Positions 27,516 to 53,627 of a stretch of DNA of 64,000 bases are shown here, one piece after another. The notes under the pieces are model-generated. The model was not told the origin of the DNA. It saw only the letters and a program-made list of their open reading frames with translations, and did not search any database. The stretch is from a virus. Lineage: Duplodnaviria > Caudoviricetes. The number at the start of each line of letters is the position of its first letter. Within the stretch, counting starts at the first letter, position 1. The stretch is taken from the IMG/VR virus record IMGVR_UViG_651703101_000001, positions 96,001 to 160,000 of that record. The stretch is one strand, 5' to 3'. The position numbers and the translations under genes are program-made.

Positions 27516-27719
27516 TGGTTTCCTCGTGCGTCTGCATATTATAACGCAGTAAGAGTTCAAAACGTGTGGTGTTGTGCCAGTTTGATGATTGGTACCAACC
27601 GGATACCTTAAGCTAGCGCGCGAGAGGCCCCATTTTTGATAAGCCAATTAAAGGACTGTCTACTGGACAACCTATGGATTTGTCCTTCTGGTATGATATA
27701 TGCATACGAAATAAAACCT

Positions 27720-29861
27720 ATGGCCTTTCTAGAAACTAAAGGAATGCTTGCCCGTCTGTTGGCGACTGAAAACCTTGTCGTCGAACATGATCCCAAGGCA
27801 AAGACTGCGAGCTTCAATGTACAAACTCGCGTCATGACTCTTCCTGTGTGGGAAGTTGAAAGTGAAGAGATTTATAACCTTTTTGTTTCTCACGAAGTTG
27901 GCCATGCCCTTTGGACTCCTACCAACTTTCCTGAAATTCTAGAGAAAGCTGGGGTCAATGCATCTCTTGTGAATATTCTAGAGGATATTCGTATTGAGAA
28001 GATGATCCAAGAGAAATTCCCCGGTCTTCGTCGTGATTATTCGATTGGGTATAAAAAACTATACGAATCTAATATTTTCGGTACTAAAGATAAAGATATC
28101 AAACAATTTGGTTTTGTTGACAGAATTAATCTTCATCATAAGGTTGGTGCGAGCCTTTTGGTTCCGTTCTCCGAACGGGAACTCGATATGGTTCAATACA
28201 TCGAAAAGTGCGATTCATATGAAGATATTGTTGAACTTTCTGAAAAGATCCAAACCTATGTAAAAATGAAGGGAGAAGTGGATCCTTCTTTCTTCGGTGA
28301 TCTTTCAGCTGATACTGTCGTTATTGTTGAAGGTGGCCACCTCCCAAATGCAAAACCCGGTGAAGAATACTCCGGCGCCCTGGGGCAGGGTGCTGGGTTT
28401 GGTTCTATCGATATCAGTGATGAAGAAGTTGAATCGGGCATGCATGAAGACTCTCAAGAATCCGAAGACTCTCAAGAATCCGAAGACTCTCAAGAATCCG
28501 AAGAAATTTCTTCAGAAGATCAACCAGATATCGGTGAGCTTGAGTCCGAAACTCAAGAGTCCCTTGAGCAAGCAATGCTTCGTATGTTGACTGGGGATAC
28601 ACGTAATTATATTTACGTTTATCCTCCCACTGTGGATCCTGATGATTATATCTGGCCTATTTCTGAGCTCAGACGAAACGCTGATGTACTCGGTATCCAA
28701 ATGCTTGAGAGTGAATTTCCGGTAAAGTCTGAATACGAAAAGTTCATGTTGCAAATCCGTCGTGATGTGAATCACATGGTGCAGCAATTTGAAATGAGAA
28801 AGTCCGCCGAACTCTATTCCCGCATCAAAGTCAATAAGACTGGTATGCTGGATACGAGTCGCCTTCATAACTATAGGCTTACTGAGGATATTTTCCTAAC
28901 ACAGGAAACTCGTCCTGATGGTAAGTCTCACGGTATGGTAATGCTTTTGGATTGGTCAGGTTCTATGGATCGAATTGCGTTCGATACGATCAAACAAATC
29001 ATCGTTCTTGTGCAGTTCTGTCGTAAAGTTCAGATTCCTTTTCAGGTTCTGTTGTTTACCACCGGGCGGAATTACAAAGATCTAAACTATAGACAATTTG
29101 TCGGTCAAGCCTATGGCCGTGCTCAAGTTGTTGAGGTCCTAACATCTGCTGTCAATAAGAATCAACTAGATAATGATCTATATCATTTCTATATGATTGG
29201 TTACTCTAAGAGTAAGTCTACCTATGGTAAGGGCTATAGTGTTAATGGCTTGGTTGCAATGGGAGGTACCCCACTGAATAACGTCATGATGGTGGCACCT
29301 AGTTTTCTTGCAAGATTTAAAGAAAGAAATCGAATTGACAAGATTTCTTTTGTGGTCGTCACTGACGGGGATTCTAGTAATTTGGAATATGTTTCACCTA
29401 ATGGTGAATTCAATTCCATTTACTATGGGAATGGAATGATTCGTGGAAGAAATGGCCACGTCTGGCCACTTCCTCTGACCGCATCTAAGGTTCCTGGGTC
29501 TATTGCAAAATGGATTACTCATCAACTTCCTTATGTCAAGTGCACAAATATTTTTCTCGGTAATTACTCCATGAGTAACTGTTACTTTGGAAGACTTACA
29601 AATGAGGATATTGATAGTTCGATTTATCAGTCTATTCCTCGTACAACCTTTAACAAAGAGAAAGGGTATCACTTCACAACTCCTAACAACTGGGAACTTG
29701 TAGCACTAATGAATCCTTCTGCATTTAGTGAAACTGCAGAAGAAATTGAAGTTGGCGATGATGCATCCATGACTCAAGTTAAGAATGCATTCAAGAAATT
29801 TCTAAACAAGAAATCTTGTAGTAAGAAAGTTCTCACTGCCCTAATTGACAGTTTCGCCTAG
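27720..29861 (+). CDS. CobT-like HEXXH peptidase plus VWA domain protein
   Basis: HEVGH, NILEDIRIE, DWSGS MIDAS, GGTPL, TDGD; paired with an AAA+ ATPase. Confidence 0.85.
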   Translation: MAFLETKGMLARLLATENLVVEHDPKAKTASFNVQTRVMTLPVWEVESEEIYNLFVSHEVGHALWTPTNFPEILEKAGVNASLVNILEDIRIEKMIQEKFPGLRRDYSIGYKKLYESNIFGTKDKDIKQFGFVDRINLHHKVGASLLVPFSERELDMVQYIEKCDSYEDIVELSEKIQTYVKMKGEVDPSFFGDLSADTVVIVEGGHLPNAKPGEEYSGALGQGAGFGSIDISDEEVESGMHEDSQESEDSQESEDSQESEEISSEDQPDIGELESETQESLEQAMLRMLTGDTRNYIYVYPPTVDPDDYIWPISELRRNADVLGIQMLESEFPVKSEYEKFMLQIRRDVNHMVQQFEMRKSAELYSRIKVNKTGMLDTSRLHNYRLTEDIFLTQETRPDGKSHGMVMLLDWSGSMDRIAFDTIKQIIVLVQFCRKVQIPFQVLLFTTGRNYKDLNYRQFVGQAYGRAQVVEVLTSAVNKNQLDNDLYHFYMIGYSKSKSTYGKGYSVNGLVAMGGTPLNNVMMVAPSFLARFKERNRIDKISFVVVTDGDSSNLEYVSPNGEFNSIYYGNGMIRGRNGHVWPLPLTASKVPGSIAKWITHQLPYVKCTNIFLGNYSMSNCYFGRLTNEDIDSSIYQSIPRTTFNKEKGYHFTTPNNWELVALMNPSAFSETAEEIEVGDDASMTQVKNAFKKFLNKKSCSKKVLTALIDSFA
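28446..28504 (+). repeat. in-frame 18-bp tandem repeat x3.3 (EDSQES)
   Basis: GAAGACTCTCAAGAATCC repeated exactly three times. Confidence 0.95.
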
Positions 29862-29945
29862 GGAGGTGCCAGTCAAAAAACTGGCACCTTCTTTTCCCAC
29901 AACCCACCAAAATCTGTTAATCTGACTTAAGTAAATTACACAATT

Positions 29946-31211
29946 ATGAAAATTCCTACCACTGACGAACTTCGTCAAACTATTTCTGATGAGTTTGGTA
30001 CTGATGTAACTACCAGGCAAATTCGTCTTTGGGCTGAAGCCAATGATCACACTCCTTCTTCGATTCTGAATCGTCTGAAAGACTATAAATCTGGTCATGG
30101 TAAGTATGACCTCTCAGTGAAAGAGGTGTTGGAACATAGTTTTGATCGACCAGCTGTCAATCCGGTTGGTGAAGTCGCGACTATTGTTCGTGATTATGAT
30201 TCTCTGGTCCCTGAAGCCGATCCGATGTTTGTTCCTTTCGGGAACTACTCTGATCTGGTCAAGATCATTCGTTCCAAAATCTTTTATCCCATTTTCATCA
30301 CTGGTCTTTCCGGCAATGGTAAGACTCACTCCATCTATCAGGCGTGTAATAAACTCAAACGTGATCTGATTCATTGTAGTATCACAATCGAAACTGACCA
30401 AGATGATCTTCTTGGTGGTTTCCGTCTTGTGGATGGTGAAACTGCATGGCATGACGGTCCTGTGATCGAGGCAATGAAACGTGGCGCCGTTCTTCTTCTT
30501 GACGAACTTGACCTTGCATCTAACAAGATTCTCTGTCTGCAATCTGTTCTTGAGGGTCGTGGAGTTTATCTGAAAAAGATTAACAAATGGGTGAATCCAG
30601 CCCCAGGATTCAATGTTATCGCGACTGCGAATACTAAGGGTAAAGGATCCGATAGTGGTAGGTTCATTGGTACTAATATTCTCAACGAAGCGTTTCTGGA
30701 ACGTTTCCCTGTAACTTTCGAGCAAGAATATCCTGCTATAGCCGTCGAGAAAAAGATTCTCACTCGCAATTTTGAGGCACTTAACTATACAAAGGATACC
30801 ACTAAGCTCGTAGAGAATCTGGTCAACTGGGCCGATGTGATTCGTAAAACCTACAATGATGGGGGCGTGGATGATCTTATCTCCACTCGTCGTCTGGTTA
30901 ATATCGTCAGGGCCTATGTGATTTGGGAAAATCCTCTTAAGGCGATTCAGTTCTGTACCAATCGTTTTGATGAAGATACTTCTAAGGTGTTTCGTGATCT
31001 TTATGAGAAAATTTCAGGTGACATTGTTTCTGTTGAAGATGCATCAGAAAGTTCATCTGAACTTTCTGAGGAAGGATATCCAAAGAGCCCCAATTATGGC
31101 GACATTTGGGAGAAAGTAAATGCTGATGGAGATAAGCAACTCTATATCTACTCACCTGCCTCTCCAGAACATAACCGTCCTGCCGATAGTTGGGTTCCCA
31201 TTAACAAATAA
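29946..31211 (+). CDS. cobS: CobS-like MoxR AAA+ ATPase
   Basis: GLSGNGKT, LLLDELD, ATANTKGKG, NEAFLERF, ISTRRL. Confidence 0.9.
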   Translation: MKIPTTDELRQTISDEFGTDVTTRQIRLWAEANDHTPSSILNRLKDYKSGHGKYDLSVKEVLEHSFDRPAVNPVGEVATIVRDYDSLVPEADPMFVPFGNYSDLVKIIRSKIFYPIFITGLSGNGKTHSIYQACNKLKRDLIHCSITIETDQDDLLGGFRLVDGETAWHDGPVIEAMKRGAVLLLDELDLASNKILCLQSVLEGRGVYLKKINKWVNPAPGFNVIATANTKGKGSDSGRFIGTNILNEAFLERFPVTFEQEYPAIAVEKKILTRNFEALNYTKDTTKLVENLVNWADVIRKTYNDGGVDDLISTRRLVNIVRAYVIWENPLKAIQFCTNRFDEDTSKVFRDLYEKISGDIVSVEDASESSSELSEEGYPKSPNYGDIWEKVNADGDKQLYIYSPASPEHNRPADSWVPINK

Positions 31212-32879: not shown

Positions 32880-32952
32880 TCTTGTGTTATGCTAGCTAAG
32901 TGGTCAAGAGGGACACCGATTCGCATTGGAGGCTCTCTTAACCACAACAAAT

Positions 32953-33025
32953 GGGTTCGTAGCAATGTGGCCAACTGCACCCGGCTTTTAACCGGAGTAT
33001 GTGGGTTCGATTCCCACCGGACCTA
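32953..33025 (+). tRNA. tRNA-Lys(TTT)
   Basis: Cloverleaf, loop CTTTTAA. Confidence 0.85.
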
Positions 33026-33164
33026 TTGACCGAAATCGTCATTAAACTACAAATCCTATGAAGTTTATGGTATCGGCCGGTACCTGTAATGGATTGGTAA
33101 GTCTGTTAGGACTATAATCTAATAGGTGTAGGGTCCCCTTCCTGCAGGAAAAGTAATCCACCAA

Positions 33165-33675: not shown

Positions 33676-34203
33676 ATGGCAAAGTTCAAAGTAGGCGACC
33701 ATGTTAGGCGCGGCCGCGGAACTAAACCCGCAGTTGTGACTTCCGTAGGTTACTGTATCTACTGTCGTTATCTTGAATCTCGTAGCACTTTCAGCGCCTA
33801 CGAATCCGATCTCGTCCTTCTAGACGAATATGAAGTAAACTCTCTTAATACTATGAACTCCACTCTCTACACTTTCAAAGAAAATGATGTCGATGTCTAT
33901 GCATCCGTCATTGGTAAGACTGAAGCCGGTCTTCTTGTCCTTGAAGTCCGCGGCGGTGGTGGTATCTTCACCAAGTCACCATCTGATGTGACCGAAGTGG
34001 TTCCTTACACCGTTTCTATTAACTTCAATGGAATCGACTCTCACTATGAAGTCCCTAAGGGTCTTCTCGCCAAAGGTGATGTTCTTCTTCGTGATGATGG
34101 CAAGTTCGGTACTGTTGTAGAACTGGACACTAAGAAGAAGAATGCCAATTCTAAACTGGTTGCCCGTCGTGTTCTGACTGAAGAACTCAGCATCGGCTCC
34201 TGA
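33676..34203 (+). CDS. hypothetical beta-rich protein
   Basis: KFKVGDHV start; 175-aa ORF. Confidence 0.6.
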   Translation: MAKFKVGDHVRRGRGTKPAVVTSVGYCIYCRYLESRSTFSAYESDLVLLDEYEVNSLNTMNSTLYTFKENDVDVYASVIGKTEAGLLVLEVRGGGGIFTKSPSDVTEVVPYTVSINFNGIDSHYEVPKGLLAKGDVLLRDDGKFGTVVELDTKKKNANSKLVARRVLTEELSIGS

Positions 34204-34518
34204 ATTTCTAGGTTAAATAGTAAGTAAAGTTTGGTAAGGAATAGAACTATCTAGCACTGCCAAATACCTAGAATTGGAAGTGGTTGGACAATCAGCTGTG
34301 CACAAGTGATTCAGGTTCGATTCCTGACACTTCCCTGGTCCTGAGTAAAGACCGTAAACTGCTCTAGTGGGGAACTACTATTCAGGCTCTTGCCGGAGTA
34401 ACTGATCCTGGCTCGAAATGGACGGCAATCCATTCTCCCAGATAGTGTCCTATCAGTACCGCCAACAGCGGGCTGATAAATAAGTCTGGTGGGTCGGACT
34501 ATAAAATTCCCACCGCCC

Positions 34519-34590
34519 GCGAATGTAATTCAGTGGTAGAATGTCTGCTTGCCAAGTAGATTGTCGTCGGTTCAAATCCGATCATTCGCT
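34519..34590 (+). tRNA. tRNA-Gly(GCC)
   Basis: Cloverleaf, loop TTGCCAA. Confidence 0.9.
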
Positions 34591-34593
34591 CTT

Positions 34594-34659
34594 GTGACAG
34601 TTGAAAGACTGGCACACACCCGGTTGACCCCCAAAGGAAAATCGGTTATCTTAGCTAAG
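34594..34659 (+). promoter_or_regulatory. palindrome plus sigma70-type promoter
   Basis: GTGACAGT-N6-ACTGGCAC, TTGACC-N17-TATCTT, AGCTAAG. Confidence 0.8.
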
Positions 34660-34856
34660 TGGTCGAGAGGGGAACGGTTGAAGCCCGATTCCCAGACTCC
34701 ACTAACTAAGGACCTAATGGCCCAACCAAAGTTAAAGTTTCTGTGGTAAAGTCGTGAAACCTAGCAAGAGATAATCTCAAATGCGAACCGCCAAAAGTCT
34801 GGAGGCGTTAAAATGAAGGACCTCTTTCCTCGGCATGAAATGAAACTGCCCACAAT

Positions 34857-34930
34857 GGTCCTGTAGCATAGTGGTCTAATGCACTACCCTGTCACGGTAG
34901 GTTACGTCGGTTCAAATCCGATCAGGATCG
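34857..34930 (+). tRNA. tRNA-Asp(GTC)
   Basis: Cloverleaf, loop CTGTCAC. Confidence 0.9.
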
Positions 34931-34984
34931 CTTAGAATAGGTTTCCGTAACCTATTCGCGATGAGACTTAATTCTCATCACTTT

Positions 34985-35055
34985 GCCTAGTTCGTCTAAT
35001 GGTAAGACAAGAGCTTCCAAACCTCTTGACGTGGGTTCGATTCCTACACTGGGTG
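34985..35055 (+). tRNA. tRNA-Trp(CCA)
   Basis: Cloverleaf, loop TTCCAAA. Confidence 0.88.
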
Positions 35056-35083
35056 TTGTCTGCATAGACATTAAACAAGCAAA

Positions 35084-35712
35084 TTGGGATTGTCTCTCCC
35101 CTATAACTGAAAAGGTTATAGAAAATCAGAATCCAATCTACGGGGTCTGAGCTTCTTCGGAAGTATAAGAGAACGAAGGATGGAGAATACGGGTGCATGC
35201 CCTTCCGACTCCACTATGCCTTTATTGGTTAAGACTCCTTGGCGGGAGAAGAAACCATAAGTAACATTTAAGAGTGAGTGCCTCGCCAAAGGTAAATGCT
35301 TCTTATCTGATTGGGGATTACAGTAGTTGTCCCAAAAGTAGTACGGAAATCTCTTAATGGAAATAAGAATCGCCGTGAAAGTAGCGTATGTCGTAGCCTT
35401 CGGGTGGCATATTTGACAAACTGCGATTGGTGAAATCGAAGCCTCTAAGGTCATTTTGGAAACGAAATGATTTCTGTCGAAAGACCTTCTGTTGGTTATG
35501 TTCACGGCATAACAGATGGAAAGATGTGCGAAACTAGAGTCTGATCAATTCAGGGTAGCAAGCATAGAAGGTGGATCCAATTAACCGATTTGCTAGTTAG
35601 AACAAACTAGAGAGGAAGAATCTAAACTCGGATACGACGAGGTGTGCGACTACTGAAAATATCATCAGTAGCATAGATTCAGTGGGACTAGACGACACTA
35701 AAGCCCACAACC
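35084..35712 (+). ncRNA. large ornate structured ncRNA (GOLLD/ROOL-class candidate)
   Basis: ~630 nt without a sense ORF between two tRNAs, dense with hairpins capped by UUCG or GAAA loops. Confidence 0.6.
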
Positions 35713-35715
35713 CAA

Positions 35716-35787
35716 TGGCATGTAGTTCAGCGGTAGAACGCTTGGCTGTTAACCAAGTTGTCGCAGGTTCGATCCCTGCCGTGCCAG
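35716..35787 (+). tRNA. tRNA-Asn(GTT)
   Basis: Cloverleaf, loop CTGTTAA. Confidence 0.92.
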
Positions 35788-35865
35788 TTGGAAGGAAACT
35801 CGGTCTTAGAGACTTCTATTCAATGAAGCCACTCACTGGTAATCAATCCAGTTCCTTCCCTAATT

Positions 35866-35941
35866 GCTCCAGTAGACAAATTGGTAAAGTCGCCTCTCTT
35901 TCAAAGAGGACATTTTGCGAGTTCGAGGCTCGTCTGGAGTT
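35866..35941 (+). tRNA. tRNA-Glu(TTC)
   Basis: Cloverleaf, loop CTTTCAA. Confidence 0.85.
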
Positions 35942-35969
35942 CTTGTCCGAAATGACATTAAACTAATAT

Positions 35970-36040
35970 ATCGTGTTAGCTCAGTGGTAGAGCAGCTTTC
36001 GATAGGAAGCAGACCCAGGTTCGATTCCGGCCACGACCCA
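35970..36040 (+). ncRNA. aberrant tRNA-like RNA (no 7-nt anticodon loop)
   Basis: Intact D arm (TAGCTCAGTGGTAGAGC) and GGTTCGATTCC; anticodon arm folds as GCTTTC-GATA-GGAAGC; ends in CCA. Confidence 0.6.
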
Positions 36041-36042
36041 AT

Positions 36043-36115
36043 ACAGTCATCGACTAGCGGTCTAGGTCGCTACCCTCTCAAGGTGGAAACACCAGTTCAA
36101 ATCTGGTTGGCTGTA
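36043..36115 (+). tRNA. tRNA-Glu(CTC)
   Basis: Cloverleaf, loop CTCTCAA. Confidence 0.85.
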
Positions 36116-36568
36116 TTTGCTATAGAAAGTTCCTGTAACCCAACCTAACCTTAGCGGGGGGTTACCTTCGGGAGAATCCCCGCTGCCACAATTACTTTCC
36201 AGCAAACACTAAAAATAAGTCATAGGAAATTCCTTTGAATACCCAACTTTTGGTCGTGGGTTCGAGCCCCACCATCATAACTTCGGTTATGGTGTAGCTC
36301 AGTTGGTAGAGCGAAAGTCATTCTATTTCCCGACTAAAACTAAAATCTTGTCAAAAGAAGTTCCTGTTTTATACACTTTTAATGTAGCCACTATACTTCT
36401 CGACAACCCTTAAATAAGGCACATGAGGTTCCTTTCAAACCCTTTGTCTGAAACACAAACTCATTACCTCTCGCCTTAAAACCAAAAAGATAAAAGAAGT
36501 TCCTCTTTTCTGTAGGTTCGACTCCTACAGAGCTCATCGAGCTCTGACGGTTAATTTTACTTCTCATC
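36116..36568 (+). ncRNA. array of five Y-RNA-like stem-loop RNAs (36116-36206, 36218-36335, 36348-36406, 36416-36477, 36489-36568)
   Basis: Each unit: outer stem, AHA opposite a single C, 6-bp stem, invariant TCCT, variable insert; stems covary between units. Confidence 0.8.
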
Positions 36569-36579
36569 CCCAATTTATT

Positions 36580-38421
36580 ATGACTATCGATAAGAAATAC
36601 GCCTCACTCAGACTTTTCAACGCAGTTGTCGTTGGAGAGAGAACAAACACTTCGTTGGACTATATGTTCAACTCAGCACGTGGTATTGTCATTGCCCCTT
36701 CTGCAATGCACCGTGTTAATGATATTAAGAAATACGTTAATGACCGTCAGCTTTCGGGTGAAGAGCTCAACGCTACTTTCTATTCCAACTGGGAAAAGGT
36801 AAGAACTGTCTCCCTGGAACAAAGAATGCGTGATCAAATCACCCACTATTTTAGCACCTATGGTCTGGAGGCACTGGGTCTTGATTCTCCTGATTATATC
36901 TATCTGCCAAACCCTGGTGTGAAGGACATTCCAGATAACCTGCAAGTTCTTGTCATCAAAGGTGTCCGTAAGGAAGATCTCCAAGCAGCATGCTTTAAGA
37001 TGCTTGCAAGTGGTGTTGCTCTCAAGCAAGAAACCATTGAAGATATTCTTTATGTTCTAGAGTATGACTGTGGTTATAAGTTCAACGGTACCGAAGTCAT
37101 CAAGAACCGTGAAGCACAAGTGCTTGTCTATGACAAGACTGGTGTATTCCCACGGGATTCCGAATCCGTACTTCGTTACCTTGTCTACAAGGCCACCGGT
37201 GAAACTCTGGTCATCAAGAACAAGTATATGATTGACAAGATCCGTTGTTCTGGTTATGAACTGCCTATGCAACTGAACGTTCGTGAGCTTGCCAAAACCT
37301 TCAACCGTTACAAGCCACTATGGCTAGCATTCAAGAAGGCAAATCGTAAAAACGCCAATACCATCAACCGGATTGCGAAGTTGTCCAAGACACTTCACAC
37401 TCCAATGAAGGTTAATGTTCTTACAAATATCACCTCTCTTCTTCCTAGTGTCGAAGATGTCAAGAAGGCATGTGAGAATGCAAACGGTTTCCAAGTTGCC
37501 CGGGCACTGAATGTAGTTCGTCTGTATAAGGCCAACAACACTTCCCGTATGTATAGTGTACGGAATGGTAAACTGTTCGTGAAGGCCGCAGAGGGTAAGA
37601 CCTTCAATACCAACAAGTACGAAGTTCCTCTGATTAGTGCACTGCAAGGTAAGACTTCCGAGAAGACTTACTATATCCCTGATGAACTGGACTATGCACT
37701 ACCTGTGTCTGAAAAGATGTTCTCTGGTAATGTGCCAACCGGTTCCTCTATCCTGGCTCCAATCGGTGCCGAGCATCTGCTGGTGGGTATCTACTGGGAG
37801 GATGAGGGTTACGGTTCCCGTACTGACCTTGACCTCAGTGCAGTCAACTTGAAGCAAAAGATTGGCTGGAACTCTGCATGGAGAACTGGTGGCTCTGAAC
37901 TGATGTACTCTGGTGATGTTACTTCCGGTCACGGTGGTGCTGCAGAATACATGTACATGAATAATGGACTGAAGGATAGCTACATGCTGACCGTCAATCT
38001 TTATTCCGGTACCGTAGGTAAGCCATTCAAGGTGATTGTTGGTTATGGTTCACTCAAGAGTGGTGGCTATAACAGTAACAGTAATAGTAACTATGTCATC
38101 GATCCTAACAAAGTCATCTTCCAAGCTGACTGTGTAATGAGAAAGAGACAAATGATGATTGGTACCATCGAACCAGTCCCACAGATTGGTGCAGATCCTA
38201 CCGTCAAGTTCACTCTACTTGATCGGGCTGTACAAAACAGTCGGGTCACTCCTTCTGGTCAGAATACCGAAACCCTCGCACTTGATTATATGTTGAGTGC
38301 AAACGCCACCTCACTTCGTCTTCGTGACTTTGTGAAAACTGTGGATAGTCCTCTACTCGCTGATGTAGACCTGAGCATGCAATCCCTCACCAGGGATAGT
38401 GTACTCTCCATCTTTGAGTGA
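36580..38421 (+). CDS. 613-aa protein: helical (TROVE/ROT-like, inferred) region plus C-terminal TerD-like domain
   Basis: C-terminal GIYW...DLDLSAV...GWN...YSGDVTS...AAEY matches TerD-type acidic motifs; N-terminal QITHYFSTYG and basic helical segments. Confidence 0.6.
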   Translation: MTIDKKYASLRLFNAVVVGERTNTSLDYMFNSARGIVIAPSAMHRVNDIKKYVNDRQLSGEELNATFYSNWEKVRTVSLEQRMRDQITHYFSTYGLEALGLDSPDYIYLPNPGVKDIPDNLQVLVIKGVRKEDLQAACFKMLASGVALKQETIEDILYVLEYDCGYKFNGTEVIKNREAQVLVYDKTGVFPRDSESVLRYLVYKATGETLVIKNKYMIDKIRCSGYELPMQLNVRELAKTFNRYKPLWLAFKKANRKNANTINRIAKLSKTLHTPMKVNVLTNITSLLPSVEDVKKACENANGFQVARALNVVRLYKANNTSRMYSVRNGKLFVKAAEGKTFNTNKYEVPLISALQGKTSEKTYYIPDELDYALPVSEKMFSGNVPTGSSILAPIGAEHLLVGIYWEDEGYGSRTDLDLSAVNLKQKIGWNSAWRTGGSELMYSGDVTSGHGGAAEYMYMNNGLKDSYMLTVNLYSGTVGKPFKVIVGYGSLKSGGYNSNSNSNYVIDPNKVIFQADCVMRKRQMMIGTIEPVPQIGADPTVKFTLLDRAVQNSRVTPSGQNTETLALDYMLSANATSLRLRDFVKTVDSPLLADVDLSMQSLTRDSVLSIFE

Positions 38422-38424
38422 GTT

Positions 38425-38484
38425 GTCCATGGCAAAGGAAGTTCCTTTTATACAATTTGGATGTCTTTACTTCCCGCCATGGAC
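38425..38484 (+). ncRNA. sixth Y-RNA-like stem-loop RNA
   Basis: GTCCATGGC-AAA-GGAAGT-TCCT...T-ACTTCC-C-GCCATGGAC, 3 nt after the gene stop. Confidence 0.8.
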
Positions 38485-38673
38485 TAACTAAATAGATGTA
38501 CCAGTTGAGGAACTGGCACACCAGGCATCCCACCGGGGTCAATCGGTGTTATGCTAGCTAAGTGGTCAAGAGAGACCGGCCCGAGATATCGGTAACCGAC
38601 TGTTTCTTGACCACAACATGACCTCCTAAAAGATAACAGTCCATGGTTTTGCGTAGGGTGACACCCTACATCA

Positions 38674-38748
38674 CCGGGTGTAGCTCAGTTTGGCCAGAGC
38701 ATTCCGTTTGGGGCGGAGGGGTCAGAGGTTCAAATCCTCTCACTCGGA
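38674..38748 (+). tRNA. tRNA-Pro(TGG), second copy
   Basis: Cloverleaf, loop TTTGGGG. Confidence 0.85.
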
Positions 38749-38811
38749 TTGATAGTAAGGCATTACTATCAAAGGACTGTCAGTGGTCCTTTAAGACAAG
38801 ATGGTTTAGAT

Positions 38812-38884
38812 TCTGCATTGGGCGAGTCTGGAACTCCGCCGGGCCTGGCGCCCGGAGACGTTGGTTCAAATCCAACATGCAGGT
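38812..38884 (+). ncRNA. atypical tRNA-like RNA (Pro TGG-like, C33)
   Basis: TCTGCAT/ATGCAGG acceptor, CCGGG-CCTGGCG-CCCGG arm, GTTGG-TTCAAAT-CCAAC T arm. Confidence 0.6.
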
Positions 38885-38943
38885 CGTGAACAGTGATTAT
38901 GCCTGATCATGTCGTTCTAATCTGAACCTAGTCACTGACATAT

Positions 38944-39014
38944 GGAGATATAGCTCAACGGCAGAGCAACCGGCCGATTACCGGATGATGAGAGTTCGAC
39001 TCTTTCTATCTCTA
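38944..39014 (+). tRNA. atypical tRNA-Ile(GAT)-like
   Basis: Cloverleaf with unusual loop CCGATTA. Confidence 0.65.
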
Positions 39015-39054
39015 CTTGTGGGTTTTGTCCACCACGTTAAAAACGGGATGTTAT

Positions 39055-39128
39055 AGGAACATAGCATAGTGGCCTAATGCACACGGCTGATAACCGTGAG
39101 ATCGTCAGTTCAAATCTGACTGTTCCTA
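39055..39128 (+). tRNA. tRNA-Ile(GAT)
   Basis: Cloverleaf, loop CTGATAA. Confidence 0.9.
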
Positions 39129-39200
39129 TTGGGAGGCAATTCTAGATTATCCCAACCGTGTGCACCCTACCGGATCTGAATAGATAAAGTGGGTCCAATC

Positions 39201-39274
39201 GGGAACTTAGCTCAGTTGCGTAGAGCACTTGGTTGAAGCCCAAGGTGTCGTCGGTTCGATTCCGTCAGTTCCCA
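39201..39274 (+). tRNA. tRNA-Phe(GAA)
   Basis: Cloverleaf, loop TTGAAGC. Confidence 0.88.
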
Positions 39275-39312
39275 TTTGAGGAAGTCATACCTCATTAAAA
39301 ACATGACACAAT

Positions 39313-39385
39313 GGGGTCTTAGCACAACTGGTAGTGCAATTGCTTTGCAAGCAATAGGTTAGGGGTTCGAGTCCCCTAGATTCCA
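39313..39385 (+). tRNA. tRNA-Ala(TGC)
   Basis: Cloverleaf, loop TTTGCAA, G3-U70. Confidence 0.9.
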
Positions 39386-39440
39386 TTTTCCGGCTTCAAT
39401 GAGTAAACCGGAGGTTGTTAGTTTCCCATAAACTATCATC

Positions 39441-39609
39441 AAACATAAGTGAGTACCCAAACTGGTAAAGGGGGGTGTGGATTCAGCCAATACGGATGGG
39501 ATTGTGAATACTAAAAACAATCTCCTAGCTCATGGTCGAAACTACCTTTCAAGTAACAGCTAGACGTAATCTTGATATGTGGGTTCGACTCCCACCTCAG
39601 ACTGTGTTT
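39441..39609 (+). ncRNA. tRNA-like RNA with ~100-nt structured insert
   Basis: D arm CCC-AAACTGGTAAA-GGG and T arm GTGGG-TTCGACT-CCCAC enclosing two extra hairpins. Confidence 0.6.
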
Positions 39610-39761
39610 ACCCGATTCCTGTAAGTTTGCTAGTGTGTAGCAGAGAATCGTAGCAAGAACTAGAATTGTGATACCTACAATCGCCCACCTCCTTGAGGCA
39701 GAGTTCATAAGTCGTCAGTTCGTAACTCGTAAGTTAACTGTATCGAACGTAGGTTCATCAT

Positions 39762-39833
39762 AGGTCCATAACTCAGCGGCAGAGTGCTACCTCGACACGG
39801 TAGAAGTCGTCAGTTCAATCCTGACTGGACCTA
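39762..39833 (+). tRNA. tRNA-Val(GAC)
   Basis: Cloverleaf, loop TCGACAC. Confidence 0.88.
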
Positions 39834-39858
39834 TTCTCTTTTGTTTATCTTCTTTATA

Positions 39859-40236
39859 ATGAGACGAAAACTTGTAGAGTTTGTGGCATCCCTTCTACAT
39901 GTAGAAGTAACATTCCCTCCAAAGAAAGAGGCATGGGTCGAACCTAAGAATCGTGAGTGTAGATTTGCAAAAGAAGTCATGCATAGTGGAGAAGTATTCT
40001 GGTACGTGGAAGAATACTTCAAATCACGAAGTGAATGTGAATTAAATGTCCCTTCTGTCGCTCATGAATTGTATGAAAAATGTCAAAGTAGAACTAACGG
40101 GAAGTTAGATGATCGTGTTTGGTTTTGGGCCAGACATCCCAAAAGATGCAATTCAATGGAAGATGCAATTGAGTATCTAAATAACAAAATCAAGAAAAAA
40201 GTTCCATTGGAAGTTTCATACATCAAAGTCGAATAA
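39859..40236 (+). CDS. hypothetical protein
   Basis: ATG (MRRKLV) downstream of tRNA-Val. Confidence 0.55.
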   Translation: MRRKLVEFVASLLHVEVTFPPKKEAWVEPKNRECRFAKEVMHSGEVFWYVEEYFKSRSECELNVPSVAHELYEKCQSRTNGKLDDRVWFWARHPKRCNSMEDAIEYLNNKIKKKVPLEVSYIKVE

Positions 40237-49009: not shown

Positions 49010-49084
49010 GCCCGTGTAGCGCAATTGGTAGGAGGCAGCACATTCAAAACGTGCACAGTGTGGGTTCAAATCCCTCCACGGGTA
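49010..49084 (+). tRNA. tRNA-Leu(CAA), short variable arm
   Basis: Loop TTCAAAA, Leu-type D arm, 5-nt variable region. Confidence 0.8.
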
Positions 49085-49140
49085 TTGGTCGTCAGAACAG
49101 GTGTTCAGAAATTACTAAATACTATTTTCTGAACACCTCT

Positions 49141-49599
49141 ATTAATAGGCCAAAATGGACTCAAGAACAATTCGACGAGGCAATTAAAGCGGTAGCTAAT
49201 AATGATAGTTGGTCTAATGTCGCGAAATCTCTAGGGTTGGGTAGATCATCTAATACTAAAATTAAGAAAAGACTACAGCATCTAAATTTAGATACCTCAC
49301 ATTTTAGAATCTCTGGACACAAACCCCAAGACTTAAATGAAATTCTTACGAATACCTCTGACCTCCGCGGAGGCCATAAACTAAAATTAAGACTATTTCG
49401 TGAAGGTGTGTTTGAACCAAAATGTTACAAGTGTGGAATAACCACTTGGAACGATAAACCAGCTCCACTAGAAATAGAACATATCAATGGGATCGGAACG
49501 GACAATCGAATAGAAAATCTTACAATTCTATGTCCTAATTGTCACGCCCAAACCTCAACATATAGAGGAAAGAATAAAGGTAAGAACATGGGGGTATGA
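49141..49599 (+). mobile_element. HNH homing endonuclease between tRNA genes (start uncertain)
   Basis: CYKC...LEIEHING..TDNRIENLTILCPNCHAQT; N-terminal HTH-like segment. Confidence 0.8.
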
Positions 49600-53553: not shown

Positions 53554-53627
53554 GCCGATGTAACCCAACTGGCAGAGGTAGATGTATGAGATGCATCTCA
53601 GTGCAGGTTCAAATCCTGTCATCGGTA
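53554..53627 (+). tRNA. tRNA-Leu(GAG), short variable arm
   Basis: Loop ATGAGAT, Leu-type D arm. Confidence 0.75.

What the first reader, a model, noticed from the sequence alone, without database searches (positions are those of the whole stretch)
36348..36568. Other array units display isolated tRNA parts, including Lys(UUU) and Phe(GAA) anticodon loops
Seen: unit 3 carries TACA-CTTTTAA-TGTA, the same 7-nt loop as the phage tRNA-Lys at 32953. Unit 4 carries TTTGT-CTGAAAC-ACAAA, a Phe-like loop. Unit 5 carries a T arm (GTAGG-TTCGACT-CCTAC) stacked on AGAGCTC/GAGCTCT. Unit 6 has a weaker ACA-ATTTGGA-TGT. Established: tRNA-Lys(UUU) anticodon loops are targets of anti-phage anticodon nucleases such as PrrC. 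Inference: the RNP may present interchangeable tRNA-fragment baits that titrate or trap host tRNases or tRNA-binding enzymes.
Basis: partly seen in the sequence, partly recalled or inferred. Interest (0 to 1): 0.8.

Follow-up and report, generated by a model that had tools for sequence, protein, structure and literature searches.

The report
Scaffolded tRNA-part mimic RNA array
A phage carries six small RNAs that share one conserved stem but display different pieces of tRNA (anticodon arms, T arms, a whole tRNA elbow), and they flank an uncharacterised protein; the same RNA-protein pairing recurs in many phages and in bacterial RNA-repair operons.

Summary
The hairpins are real. Units 3, 4 and 5 lie where stated. 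Unit 6 exists but lies at 38431-38478, beyond the neighbouring gene.

The units are not loose tRNA debris. Each is a constant scaffold: a 3+ bp outer helix, an A-rich 3-nt bulge, a 6-bp helix, then an invariant UCCU. The scaffold carries a variable head. A covariance model of the scaffold found:
- 5 units in the window and nothing else in 64 kb;
- 214 units in 75 of 80 related viral loci;
- 60 units in 25 of 25 bacterial loci.

All hits are on the strand of, and next to, homologues of the 613-aa ORF 36580-38421 (helical N-domain plus TerD fold, no Pfam family).

Anticodon-like 7-nt loops occur in 27 of 196 unique heads, against 5.2 expected. Fifteen are letter-identical to a loop of the window's own tRNAs, against 0.31 expected. 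The Lys(UUU) loop is the commonest.

Unit 2 is a YrlA-like tRNA mimic and unit 5 a reduced one. In Bacteroidota the array sits between RtcB and this protein.

Best reading: a Ro60/Y-RNA-like RNP that presents tRNA parts. The decoy function is plausible but untested. Units 4 and 6 are individually weak.

The parts
36119..36203 (+). Unit 1: scaffold with a G+C-rich head of unassigned type
   Evidence: Model R1 scores 23.6 bits, E 8.4e-4 over the whole window. This unit was not in the model's seed. The scaffold appears in the unconstrained fold.
36219..36334 (+). Unit 2: scaffold with a permuted tRNA-like head (T arm, capped acceptor stem, D arm); YrlA-like
   Evidence: Rfam YrlA RF02553 matches over its full length at 35.9 bits, below the gathering score of 69, with E 4e-6. 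The scaffold helices were seen by the pairing scan. R1 missed this unit even with filters off.
36350..36404 (+). Unit 3: scaffold with an anticodon-arm-like hairpin at 36372-36386. Its loop equals that of the window's tRNA-Lys(UUU).
   Evidence: R1 scores 40.0 bits. The hairpin is in the minimum-energy fold, z -3.20. Loop identity is shown. The same loop on other stems occurs in L034, L039, L054 and L076 and in bacterial L092, L105 and L106.
36418..36475 (+). Unit 4: scaffold with a hairpin at 36443-36459 whose 7-nt loop carries the Phe anticodon
   Evidence: R1 scores 39.4 bits. The 5-bp stem was found by the hairpin scan. The minimum-energy fold prefers a competing hairpin. The loop differs from the window's own tRNA-Phe loop.
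36489..36568 (+). Unit 5: scaffold with a reduced tRNA-elbow head: T arm 36512-36528, capped stem 36529-36545, then a single-stranded stretch containing G-G
   Evidence: R1 scores 28.8 bits; this unit was not in the seed. Fold. The same head type occurs in bacterial loci L090, L120, L133, L139 and L154.
36580..38421 (+). 613-aa protein P0001: helical N-domain (about residues 1-360) and a C-terminal TerD-fold domain (393-571). It is the presumed protein partner of the units.
   Evidence: No Pfam, PHROG, NCBIfam or PADLOC family matched. AF2 model: pLDDT 85.9, pTM 0.86. TerD fold: Z 11.0, rmsd 3.1, 145 residues aligned to 2qz7_B. The family holds 1322 clusters at 50% identity.
38425..38484 (+). 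Unit 6 (core 38431-38478) with a 9-bp outer helix; small hairpin at 38452-38464
   Evidence: Best R1 score, 51.7 bits. Fold z -4.86. Sequence.
32952..33026 (+). The phage's tRNA-Lys(UUU), the comparator for the unit-3 loop
   Evidence: ARAGORN; loop extracted.

Best explanation
Region 36119-36568 plus 38425-38484 encodes six small RNAs built on one plan.

The constant scaffold is: an outer helix; a 5' bulge of three bases beginning with A, opposite a single C; a 6-bp helix ending G-C, U-A; then an invariant single-stranded UCCU. The 3' strand of the 6-bp helix is preceded by an invariant U.

The scaffold holds a variable head. In this window the heads are:
- a full tRNA-elbow mimic (unit 2, YrlA-like);
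- a reduced elbow mimic (unit 5);
- two anticodon-arm-like hairpins (unit 3 Lys-type, unit 4 Phe-type);
- two heads of unassigned type (units 1 and 6).

Shown:
- The scaffold is an RNA-level structure with compensatory changes.
- It is tied in position and strand to one protein family, in phages and in bacteria.
- Heads across the family are enriched for T arms and for true anticodon loops.

Inferred:
- The 613-aa helical+TerD protein binds the scaffold, as Ro60 binds the stem of Y RNAs.
- The heads engage proteins that recognise tRNA parts, so that each RNP couples the protein to a different tRNA-binding enzyme.
- In phages, most of which lack a nearby RtcB, the likeliest targets are host anticodon nucleases. 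The heads would then act as competitive substrates or inhibitors.
- In Bacteroidota the same RNP works within an RtcB/RlaP repair operon.

My odds: an RNP of scaffold plus this protein, about 0.75. Heads selected as tRNA-part mimics, about 0.75. Decoy of anticodon nucleases as the main phage function, about 0.35.
For: Scaffold:
- R1, built from 35 short units, finds 5 units in the window, all on the + strand. No other hit reaches E 10 in 64 kb on either strand. With filters off, the next best hit in 35000-40000 scores 10.1 bits.
- R1 gives 211 hits in 575 kb of 80 viral loci, all on the gene's strand.
- Of the 214 hits lie within 800 nt upstream of the gene, 9 within 600 nt downstream, and 2 elsewhere. 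75 of 80 loci have a hit. Three of the five without a hit have no upstream DNA held.
- R1 gives 60 hits in 25 of 25 bacterial loci, all directly upstream of the gene.
- Pairing on sets that gave no seed: 99.1% of 972 cells are paired, 8 of 9 pairs change on both sides, and slid controls pair at 36-56%. The bacterial set pairs at 98.1%.
- UCCU, and the U before the 3' strand, are invariant in 196 of 196 unique units.

Heads:
- Anticodon-type loops closed by at least 4 bp, T loops excluded: 27 of 196 against 5.2 +- 2.3, with 0 of 300 shuffles reaching the observed count.
- Loops identical to one of the window's 34 tRNA anticodon loops: 15 against 0.31.
- After dereplication to 86 heads: 12 against 3.1, and 6 against 0.12.
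- Lys-type loops sit on at least five different stems.
- The T-loop word is the most enriched 5-mer, in 12 of 85 heads against 1.5.
- Unit 2 matches YrlA over its full length.

Context:
- In bacteria RtcB lies directly upstream in 53 of 80 loci, a WYL regulator in 49 of 80, and RlaP in 34 of 80. This mirrors the rsr-yrlBA-rtcBA operon.
- Hughes et al. 2020 (PMC7790460, passages read) propose that the YrlA tRNA-like domain may competitively inhibit an anticodon nuclease.
- In the window, and in cyanophage S-CBWM1, the gene sits inside the tRNA gene cluster.
Against: - No binding, expression or processing data exist. The four runs that hold part of the stretch are probably DNA.
- The protein has no detectable TROVE relation by sequence. 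By fold there are only weak ties: Ro60 chains at Z 5.4-5.8 among many unrelated helical hits, with a top Z of 6.2.
- Only 27 of 196 unique heads, and 23 of 76 viral arrays, carry an anticodon-type hairpin. Most heads are short A/U-rich loops of unknown meaning.
- The unit-4 hairpin is not in the minimum-energy fold.
- The unit-6 motif class keeps no fixed loop register.
- The same Lys-type heads occur in bacterial repair operons, so a purely anti-defence reading is too narrow.
- Alignments A3, A4 and A6 are fitted to the model, which favours the pair counts. The seed units were picked by a pairing scan.
- The heads are related by descent, so counts are not independent events even after dereplication.
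Confidence: 0.6

Rival explanations
1. RNA-repair platform or sensor rather than decoy. The RNP works with RtcB and RlaP. The heads mimic repair substrates in order to recruit or regulate the ligase and nucleotidyltransferase. Alternatively they are sacrificial reporters: their cleavage yields cyclic-phosphate ends that switch on the WYL-regulated operon. Phages would have borrowed the module to repair or monitor their own and host tRNAs.
For: - Bacterial gene order is WYL regulator | RtcB, array, protein, RlaP.
- RtcB is present in 53 of 80 bacterial loci, WYL in 49 of 80 and RlaP in 34 of 80.
- The Salmonella Rtc operon is induced by tRNA halves with cyclic-phosphate ends (PMC7790460, passages read).
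- S-CBWM1 has a tRNA nucleotidyltransferase near the cluster.
Against: - The window's complete 178.6-kb genome has no RtcB and only a sub-threshold RlaP-like match at 12.8 bits.
- Only 2 of 80 viral loci have RtcB within the flanks held.
- No data show that the heads are cleaved.
Confidence: 0.3
2. Cis-acting leader elements. The units are operator sites in the 5' untranslated region through which the protein autoregulates its own synthesis, and the heads are incidental.
For: - 203 of 214 units lie within 800 nt upstream of the gene, on its strand.
- The last unit ends 11 nt before the start codon in the window.
Against: - Unit 6 and the arrays of L035 and L041 lie downstream of the gene.
- S-CBWM1 has a unit 2.5 kb away, among tRNA genes.
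- Arrays hold up to 7 units per locus.
- Heads include conserved tRNA-like modules, and anticodon loops occur far above chance. A plain operator would not need these.
Confidence: 0.08
3. Decayed tRNA genes, or processing signals of the tRNA cluster, with no function of their own. Alternatively, DNA-level repeats such as iterons or recombination sites.
For: - The array lies inside a cluster of 34 tRNA genes.
- A sub-threshold tRNA-like stretch lies just upstream at 35970-36038.
Against: - The scaffold is kept by compensatory changes on both strands of two helices.
- It is strand-specific: 0 hits on the opposite strand in 575 kb.
- It occurs in bacterial loci that have no tRNA cluster.
- Neither ARAGORN nor Rfam calls a tRNA in 36119-36568.
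Confidence: 0.03

Closest known systems
Ro60 (Rsr) with Y RNAs, especially YrlA, in the rsr-yrlBA-rtcBA operon (Chen et al. 2014, PMC4201824, passages read; Hughes et al. 2020, PMC7790460, passages read)
   Same: - Small RNAs whose 5' and 3' ends form a bulged stem, carrying a second module that mimics tRNA (T arm, capped acceptor stem, D arm).
- More than one such RNA is encoded beside the protein gene.
- Linkage to RtcB.
- Present in both bacteria and phages.
- Unit 2 aligns to the YrlA model over its full length, with a 5-nt 5' bulge at the same place.
   Different: - The protein has no TROVE match by sequence and ends in a TerD fold rather than a vWA domain.
- The genome has no TROVE gene.
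- The scaffold consensus (invariant UCCU, A-rich bulge) is not that of YrlA. No unit reaches the Rfam threshold.
- The phiM12 YrlA-like element, which lies near a DUF2828 protein, lacks this scaffold.
- Arrays reach 6-7 units.
- Heads include isolated anticodon arms, which are not described in the passages of Chen et al. 2014 that I read.
Phage counter-measures to anticodon nucleases: phage-encoded tRNAs that replace or resist cleavage, and the T4 Pnk/Rnl1 repair of PrrC-cut tRNA-Lys. This is recalled knowledge; only a passage in PMC11090510 citing such work was read.
   Same: The element sits in a phage with 34 tRNA genes, inside the tRNA cluster. The commonest head copies the tRNA-Lys(UUU) loop, the classic PrrC target.
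   Different: The heads are fragments on a foreign scaffold. They are not functional tRNAs or repair enzymes, and they cannot be aminoacylated as drawn.
RNA decoys that copy a host RNA to sequester its protein, for example phage RNA anti-CRISPRs made of repeat mimics (recalled; no paper read here)
   Same: Tandem small RNAs in a phage that copy part of a cellular RNA recognised by defence proteins.
   Different: Here there is a dedicated protein partner and a shared scaffold, and bacteria carry the same system.
TerD-domain proteins and the MXAN_6230/SCO0854 RING family (NF041916)
   Same: The C-terminal domain has the TerD fold. The Atlas structure search gives TM 0.74 over residues 3-613 to the RING family. 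A cyanobacterial homologue matches NF041916 at E 1.2e-7, far below its cut-off.
   Different: There is no RING domain. Pfam TerD is not matched by sequence. I know of no RNA partner reported for these families (recalled).

Membership tests
Y RNA / YrlA (Rfam RF02553) | Reaches the Rfam gathering score | tested here: not met
   Unit 2 scores 35.9 bits against a gathering score of 69. The other units give no match at E up to 10.
Y RNA / YrlA (Rfam RF02553) | tRNA-like domain with T arm, capped acceptor stem and D arm between the strands of a bulged stem | tested here: met
   Unit 2 aligns over the full length of the model, positions 1-114. Units 3-6 lack this domain.
Y RNA / YrlA (Rfam RF02553) | Encoded beside, and bound by, a Ro60/TROVE protein | tested here: not met
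   There is no TROVE match in the 178.6-kb genome; the control search found TROVE in 2 of 14 known genomes. The neighbouring protein has no Pfam family. Binding itself cannot be tested here.
Ro60 / TROVE (for the 613-aa protein) | TROVE domain by sequence | tested here: not met
   Pfam gives 0 families at E 0.01. A profile search against PDB sequences finds no Ro60. hhalign against the phiM12 DUF2828 protein gives probability 0.2.
Ro60 / TROVE (for the 613-aa protein) | Helical-repeat ring fold | tested here: inconclusive
   Hits to Ro60 chains: 1yvp_A Z 5.8 (63 residues aligned, rmsd 3.0), 9l5y_B Z 5.5, 2nvo_A Z 5.4. All fall on model residues 276-360, among tied unrelated helical hits. The full model gives Z 4.3 over 132 residues.
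Ro60 / TROVE (for the 613-aa protein) | C-terminal vWA domain | tested here: not met
   The C-terminal domain has the TerD fold: Z 11.0 to 2qz7_B.
tRNA (RF00005) | Cloverleaf called by ARAGORN or Rfam | tested here: not met
   No tRNA is called in 36119-36568 or in 38425-38484.
Anticodon stem-loop (as a structural mimic) | 7-nt loop with pyrimidine 32, U33 and purine 37, closed by a 5-bp stem | tested here: inconclusive
   - Unit 3: the loop is correct and identical to the tRNA-Lys loop, but the stem is 4 bp.
- Unit 4: loop and 5-bp stem are correct, but a competing fold is lower in energy.
- Unit 6: 3-bp stem with A at position 32.

The family-level enrichment is met.
TerD (PF02342) | TerD beta-sandwich | tested here: met
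   By fold: Foldseek probability 1.00 to 3ibz, 2qng and 2kxt, and Z 11.0 and 9.7. By Pfam sequence model there is no match.

The most novel reading that the evidence does not exclude
This is a widespread, unnamed RNP system: 1322 protein clusters at 50% identity, in phages and in Bacteroidota. A helical+TerD protein is armed by an array of scaffold RNAs. Their exchangeable heads are decoy anticodon arms and tRNA elbows. Each head captures a different tRNA-targeting nuclease or tRNA-binding enzyme. The set of heads in a genome tracks the tRNA species under attack in that host, with Lys(UUU) first. This would be an RNA-programmed, multiplexed counter-measure to tRNA-cleaving immunity and toxins.
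Probability: 0.3. Interest if true: 0.95.

Novelty: new variant of a known kind. Interest (0 to 1): 0.85.

Why it matters
tRNA cleavage at the anticodon loop is a major theme of bacterial immunity and toxin warfare. The role of Y RNAs and Ro60 in bacterial RNA-repair operons is still open.

This finding offers:
- a second protein-RNA pairing, unrelated or only distantly related to Ro60, that occupies the Ro60/Y-RNA position in RtcB operons;
- a pairing that is common in phages;
- RNAs that display isolated anticodon arms of named tRNAs as well as the tRNA elbow.

This makes the idea that such RNAs are competitive mimics for tRNA-binding enzymes directly testable. The head sequence predicts the target tRNA. 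A cultured host-phage pair (Synechococcus phage S-CBWM1) and cultivable Chryseobacterium strains carry the system.

It also defines an RNA motif absent from Rfam 15 and gives a first functional handle on a protein family of more than a thousand clusters.

Tried and rejected
- **Tandem-repeat finder** on 34000-39000 saw no array, because the units are too divergent.
- **First pairing scans** were too permissive. The loose scan gave 750 hits on the gene strand and 807 on the other. A tighter one still gave 82 on the other strand. I replaced both with the covariance model.
- **Direct search for relatives of the protein in viral contigs** with the single sequence found none. The alignment found 167.
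- **Botulinum and tetanus neurotoxin rows in the Foldseek list** have TM 0.05-0.12 and rmsd 24-35. I rejected them as meaningless.
- **Sequencing runs.** No RNA holder is listed. Four wastewater runs labelled RNA-Seq hold about a fifth of the words, look like DNA contigs of a related strain, and tell nothing on expression.
- **Promoter and terminator scan** is at chance: 6 against 6.4, and 4 against 3.4.
- **Pairing of the UCC of the bulge with a G-G-A in unit-6-type heads.** This pairing is in the minimum-energy folds, but the triplet is not enriched over shuffles: 53 of 196 against 63.0. I left it unexplained.
- **Profile search of the N-domain over 1.84 billion proteins** lists only the best 150, all close family members. 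It could not test a distant TROVE link.
- **Burroughs and Aravind 2016** (PMC5062991) is not held. It may describe this protein family or its operon, and I could not check. Supplements of Chen et al. 2014 were not consulted.
- **Searches for prior description:** searches found no paper describing this RNA array or this protein family. This holds only for the library searched.
Full report
**Setting**

The window is part of a complete 178,563-bp virus record. It carries 34 tRNA genes, all on the + strand, between 31547 and 53784. The finding lies in a non-coding stretch between tRNA-Glu(CUC) (36042-36116) and a 613-aa ORF (36580-38421).

**The observation**

The sequence shows the hairpins as described.

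| Unit | Span | Hairpin |
|---|---|---|
| 3 | 36350-36404 | 4 bp + 7-nt loop, 36372-36386 |
| 4 | 36418-36475 | 5 bp + 7-nt loop, 36443-36459 |
| 5 | 36489-36568 | 5-bp T arm with 7-nt T-type loop, 36512-36528; capped 7-bp stem, 36529-36545 |

- The unit-3 loop is identical to the anticodon loop of the window's tRNA-Lys(UUU).
- The unit-4 loop carries the Phe anticodon. It differs at two positions from the window's own tRNA-Phe loop, and a competing hairpin has lower energy in the unconstrained fold.
- The 'unit 6' hairpin lies at 38452-38464, outside the stated coordinates, in a unit placed right after the ORF's stop.

**What the units are**

All six units share one architecture, which I first saw by eye and then by a pairing scan:
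- an outer helix of 3 to 9 bp;
- a three-base 5' bulge that starts with A, opposite a single C;
- a 6-bp helix ending G-C, U-A;
- an unpaired UCCU;
- a variable head;
- a U, and then the 3' strands.

The helices differ in sequence between units while staying complementary.

A bare sequence motif around the bulge is not significant on its own in the window: 17 matches against 8.2 +- 3.3 expected, with 2 of 100 shuffles reaching 17. The structure is significant:
- A covariance model (R1) built from 35 short units of the window and of related loci finds units 6, 3, 4, 5 and 1 at 51.7 to 23.6 bits.
- No other hit reaches E 10 in the whole window on either strand.
- Units 1 and 5 were not in the seed.
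- With filters off, the next best hit in 35000-40000 scores 10.1 bits.
- Unit 2 is missed by R1. It has an A-U in place of the G-C pair and a 91-nt head, but it shows the same helices.

Unconstrained folding recovers the scaffold in units 1, 3, 4, 5 and 6. The z-scores are -2.29, -3.20, -3.24, -1.99 and -4.86.

**Unit 2 is a Y-RNA-like tRNA mimic**

Rfam's YrlA model aligns to 36222-36336 over its full length at 35.9 bits, below the gathering score of 69, with E 4e-6 in the local search. The alignment shows a T arm, a capped acceptor stem and a D arm between the strands of a bulged stem. No other Rfam family matches the other units.

**The protein partner**

The ORF product (P0001) matches no Pfam, PHROG, NCBIfam or PADLOC family and no PDB sequence.
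- An AlphaFold model from a 26-sequence alignment is confident: pLDDT 85.9, pTM 0.86. It shows a helical N-domain and a beta-rich C-domain.
- The C-domain (393-571) has the TerD fold: Foldseek probability 1.00; Z 11.0, rmsd 3.1, 145 residues aligned to 2qz7_B.
- The N-domain gives only weak hits. Three Ro60 structures (Z 5.8, 5.5, 5.4) align to the same 276-360 segment, but they are tied with many unrelated helical proteins and the top Z is 6.2. A TROVE relation is therefore open.
- The genome has no TROVE gene.
- The family is large: 360 hits in the word-indexed search and 1322 clusters at 50% identity with E up to 0.001.
- It is found mostly in viruses, and also in cyanobacteria and Bacteroidota.
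- A RING-fused actinobacterial family (NF041916) is a distant relative.

**The pairing is conserved**

In 80 viral loci that encode a relative, R1 gives 211 hits at E up to 0.01, every one on the gene's strand.
- Of the 214 hits in the two half-searches, 203 lie within 800 nt upstream of the gene, 9 within 600 nt downstream, and 2 elsewhere.
- 75 of 80 loci have at least one hit. Three of the five without a hit have no upstream DNA held.
- Arrays hold 1 to 7 units, most often 2 to 4.
- In 25 bacterial loci sampled from the 80 kept, R1 gives 60 hits in 25 of 25 loci, all directly upstream of the gene.

On sets that contributed no seed:
- In A4, 99.1% of 972 cells are paired, against 81.7% after shuffling and 36-56% when slid. 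8 of 9 pairs show changes on both sides.
- In A6, 98.1% are paired.
- These alignments are fitted to the model, which favours such counts.

UCCU, and the U before the 3' strand, are invariant in 196 of 196 unique units.

The YrlA-like element of Sinorhizobium phage phiM12 lies near a DUF2828 protein and lacks this scaffold. The scaffold therefore goes with this protein family rather than with tRNA-like heads in general.

I took the heads of the 196 unique units (219 R1 hits plus unit 2). I scanned them for 7-nt loops closed by at least 4 bp and compared the counts with dinucleotide-preserving shuffles of each head.

| Set | Measure | Observed | Shuffles |
|---|---|---|---|
| 196 unique, T loops included | Y-U-N-N-N-R-N loop | 32 | 5.1 +- 2.3 (0 of 200 reach it) |
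| 196 unique, T loops excluded | Y-U-N-N-N-R-N loop | 27 | 5.2 +- 2.3 (0 of 300) |
| 196 unique, T loops excluded | loop identical to one of the window's 34 tRNA loops | 15 | 0.31 +- 0.57 |
| 196 unique, stems of 5 bp or more | Y-U-N-N-N-R-N / identical | 15 / 10 | 1.66 / 0.07 |
| 86 heads under 0.7 similarity | Y-U-N-N-N-R-N / identical | 12 / 6 | 3.14 / 0.12 (0 of 300) |

The listed loops comprise 33 hairpins, 5 of them T loops.
- Most frequent is the Lys(UUU) triplet (6). These sit on stems that differ between the window, L034, L039, L054, L076 and L028. L004 has a Lys(CUU)-type loop.
- Next come Asn(GUU) (4), a U-G-G class (4), Ser(UGA) (2) and Glu(UUC) (2), then ten single types.
- Loops identical to the window's tRNA loops include those of Lys, Asn, Tyr, Ser(UGA), Ser(GCU), Glu and Pro.
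- The Lys-type loop also occurs in bacterial units (L092, L105, L106).

The enrichment is real, but it concerns a minority: 23 of 76 viral arrays and 10 of 25 bacterial arrays have such a head.

The most enriched word in heads is the T-loop word, in 12 of 85 heads against 1.5.

Unit 5's head type (T arm, capped stem, then an unpaired stretch with G-G) recurs in 5 of the 25 bacterial loci. It reads as a reduced tRNA elbow.

**Units that remain unclear**

- Unit 6 belongs to a recurrent class sharing a short U/G motif. That four-letter word is modestly enriched: 31 of 147 short heads against 18.5 +- 3.0. The position of the motif relative to flanking pairs shifts between homologues, so I do not read it as an anticodon loop.
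- The minimum-energy folds pair part of the unit-6 motif with the UCC of the bulge. The triplet needed is not enriched.
- Unit 1 has a G+C-rich head that I could not assign.
- Unit 4's loop has only approximate relatives.

**Context and mechanism**

In Bacteroidota the order is: a divergently transcribed WYL-WCX regulator, RtcB, the RNA array, the protein, and often RlaP nucleotidyltransferases.

By tblastn:

| Neighbour | Bacterial loci | Viral loci |
|---|---|---|
| RtcB | 53 of 80 | 2 of 80 |
| WYL regulator | 49 of 80 | 0 of 80 |
| RlaP | 34 of 80 | 2 of 80 |

This is the place that Ro60 and its Y RNAs hold in the Salmonella rsr-yrlBA-rtcBA operon. That operon is induced by tRNA halves cut in the anticodon loop. 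Its authors suggest that the YrlA tRNA-like domain may act as a competitive inhibitor of the nuclease (PMC7790460, passages read).

The window's phage has no RtcB. It keeps the array and the protein inside its tRNA cluster, as does cyanophage S-CBWM1. In S-CBWM1 the two units are unannotated in the public record.

I therefore read the system as a Ro60/Y-RNA-like RNP whose RNAs present tRNA parts to tRNA-recognising proteins. In phages, anticodon nucleases are the likeliest clients. In bacteria, the repair or sensing role is at least as likely. Binding, expression and any effect on nucleases are all inferred.

**Novelty**

The RNA scaffold is absent from Rfam 15. The protein has no family name. 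Six literature searches found no description. The one paper most likely to mention the operon (Burroughs and Aravind 2016) was not available. The concept of a tRNA-mimicking RNA with a protein partner in RtcB operons is known. The partner, the scaffold, the arrays and the isolated anticodon arms are new.

Noticed in passing
window 38812-38885, 38944-39015, 39761-39834, 53554-53627: Four ARAGORN-called tRNAs (Pro-UGG, Ile-GAU, Val-GAC, Leu-GAG) have anticodon loops without the usual U at position 33 or pyrimidine at position 32. They may be loop variants that escape anticodon nucleases, or they may be mis-calls. The Pro one scores only 36.2 bits in Rfam.
   Followed up: no
window 38480-38672: The 193 nt after unit 6 fold far better than shuffles: -69.3 kcal/mol, z -4.13, 0 of 200 shuffles as good. 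There are three hairpins, and an enclosing helix reuses the 3' strand of unit 6's outer stem. No Rfam match at E up to 1.
   Followed up: partly
window 35970-36038: A sub-threshold tRNA-like stretch (Rfam tRNA 26.0 bits against a gathering score of 29; not called by ARAGORN) lies between the two tRNA-Glu genes. Its anticodon region is irregular.
   Followed up: no
L008 about 2700-2850: Upstream of the homologous gene, the two halves of what looks like a tRNA (D-arm side and T-arm side) are separated by about 50 nt containing a scaffold-like motif. It may be a split or interrupted tRNA, or a unit nested in a tRNA.
   Followed up: no
window 27636-31211: A CobT-like protein (phrog_459, E 2.5e-198) and a CobS-like AAA ATPase (phrog_249; Pfam AAA_5) lie just before the tRNA cluster.
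   Followed up: no
window 49051-49599: An HNH endonuclease with a Myb-like N-terminus sits inside the tRNA cluster, and its ORF overlaps the 3' part of tRNA-Leu(CAA) at 49010-49084.
   Followed up: no
L163 4150-4200 and 6619-6667 (NC_048106 13149-13199 and 15618-15666): The cultured cyanophage S-CBWM1 carries two scaffold units (51.8 and 37.9 bits) that have no feature in the public annotation. One lies among tRNA genes, 2.5 kb from the homologous gene gp22.
   Followed up: partly
bacterial loci L082-L154 (A6): In Bacteroidota the unit next to the gene nearly always has the same helices, and its head often carries a five-letter pyrimidine-rich word: 12 of 60 heads against 4.9 +- 1.8 in shuffles. 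That word is roughly the complement of the U/G motif in the first unit, so the two loops might pair with each other.
   Followed up: partly
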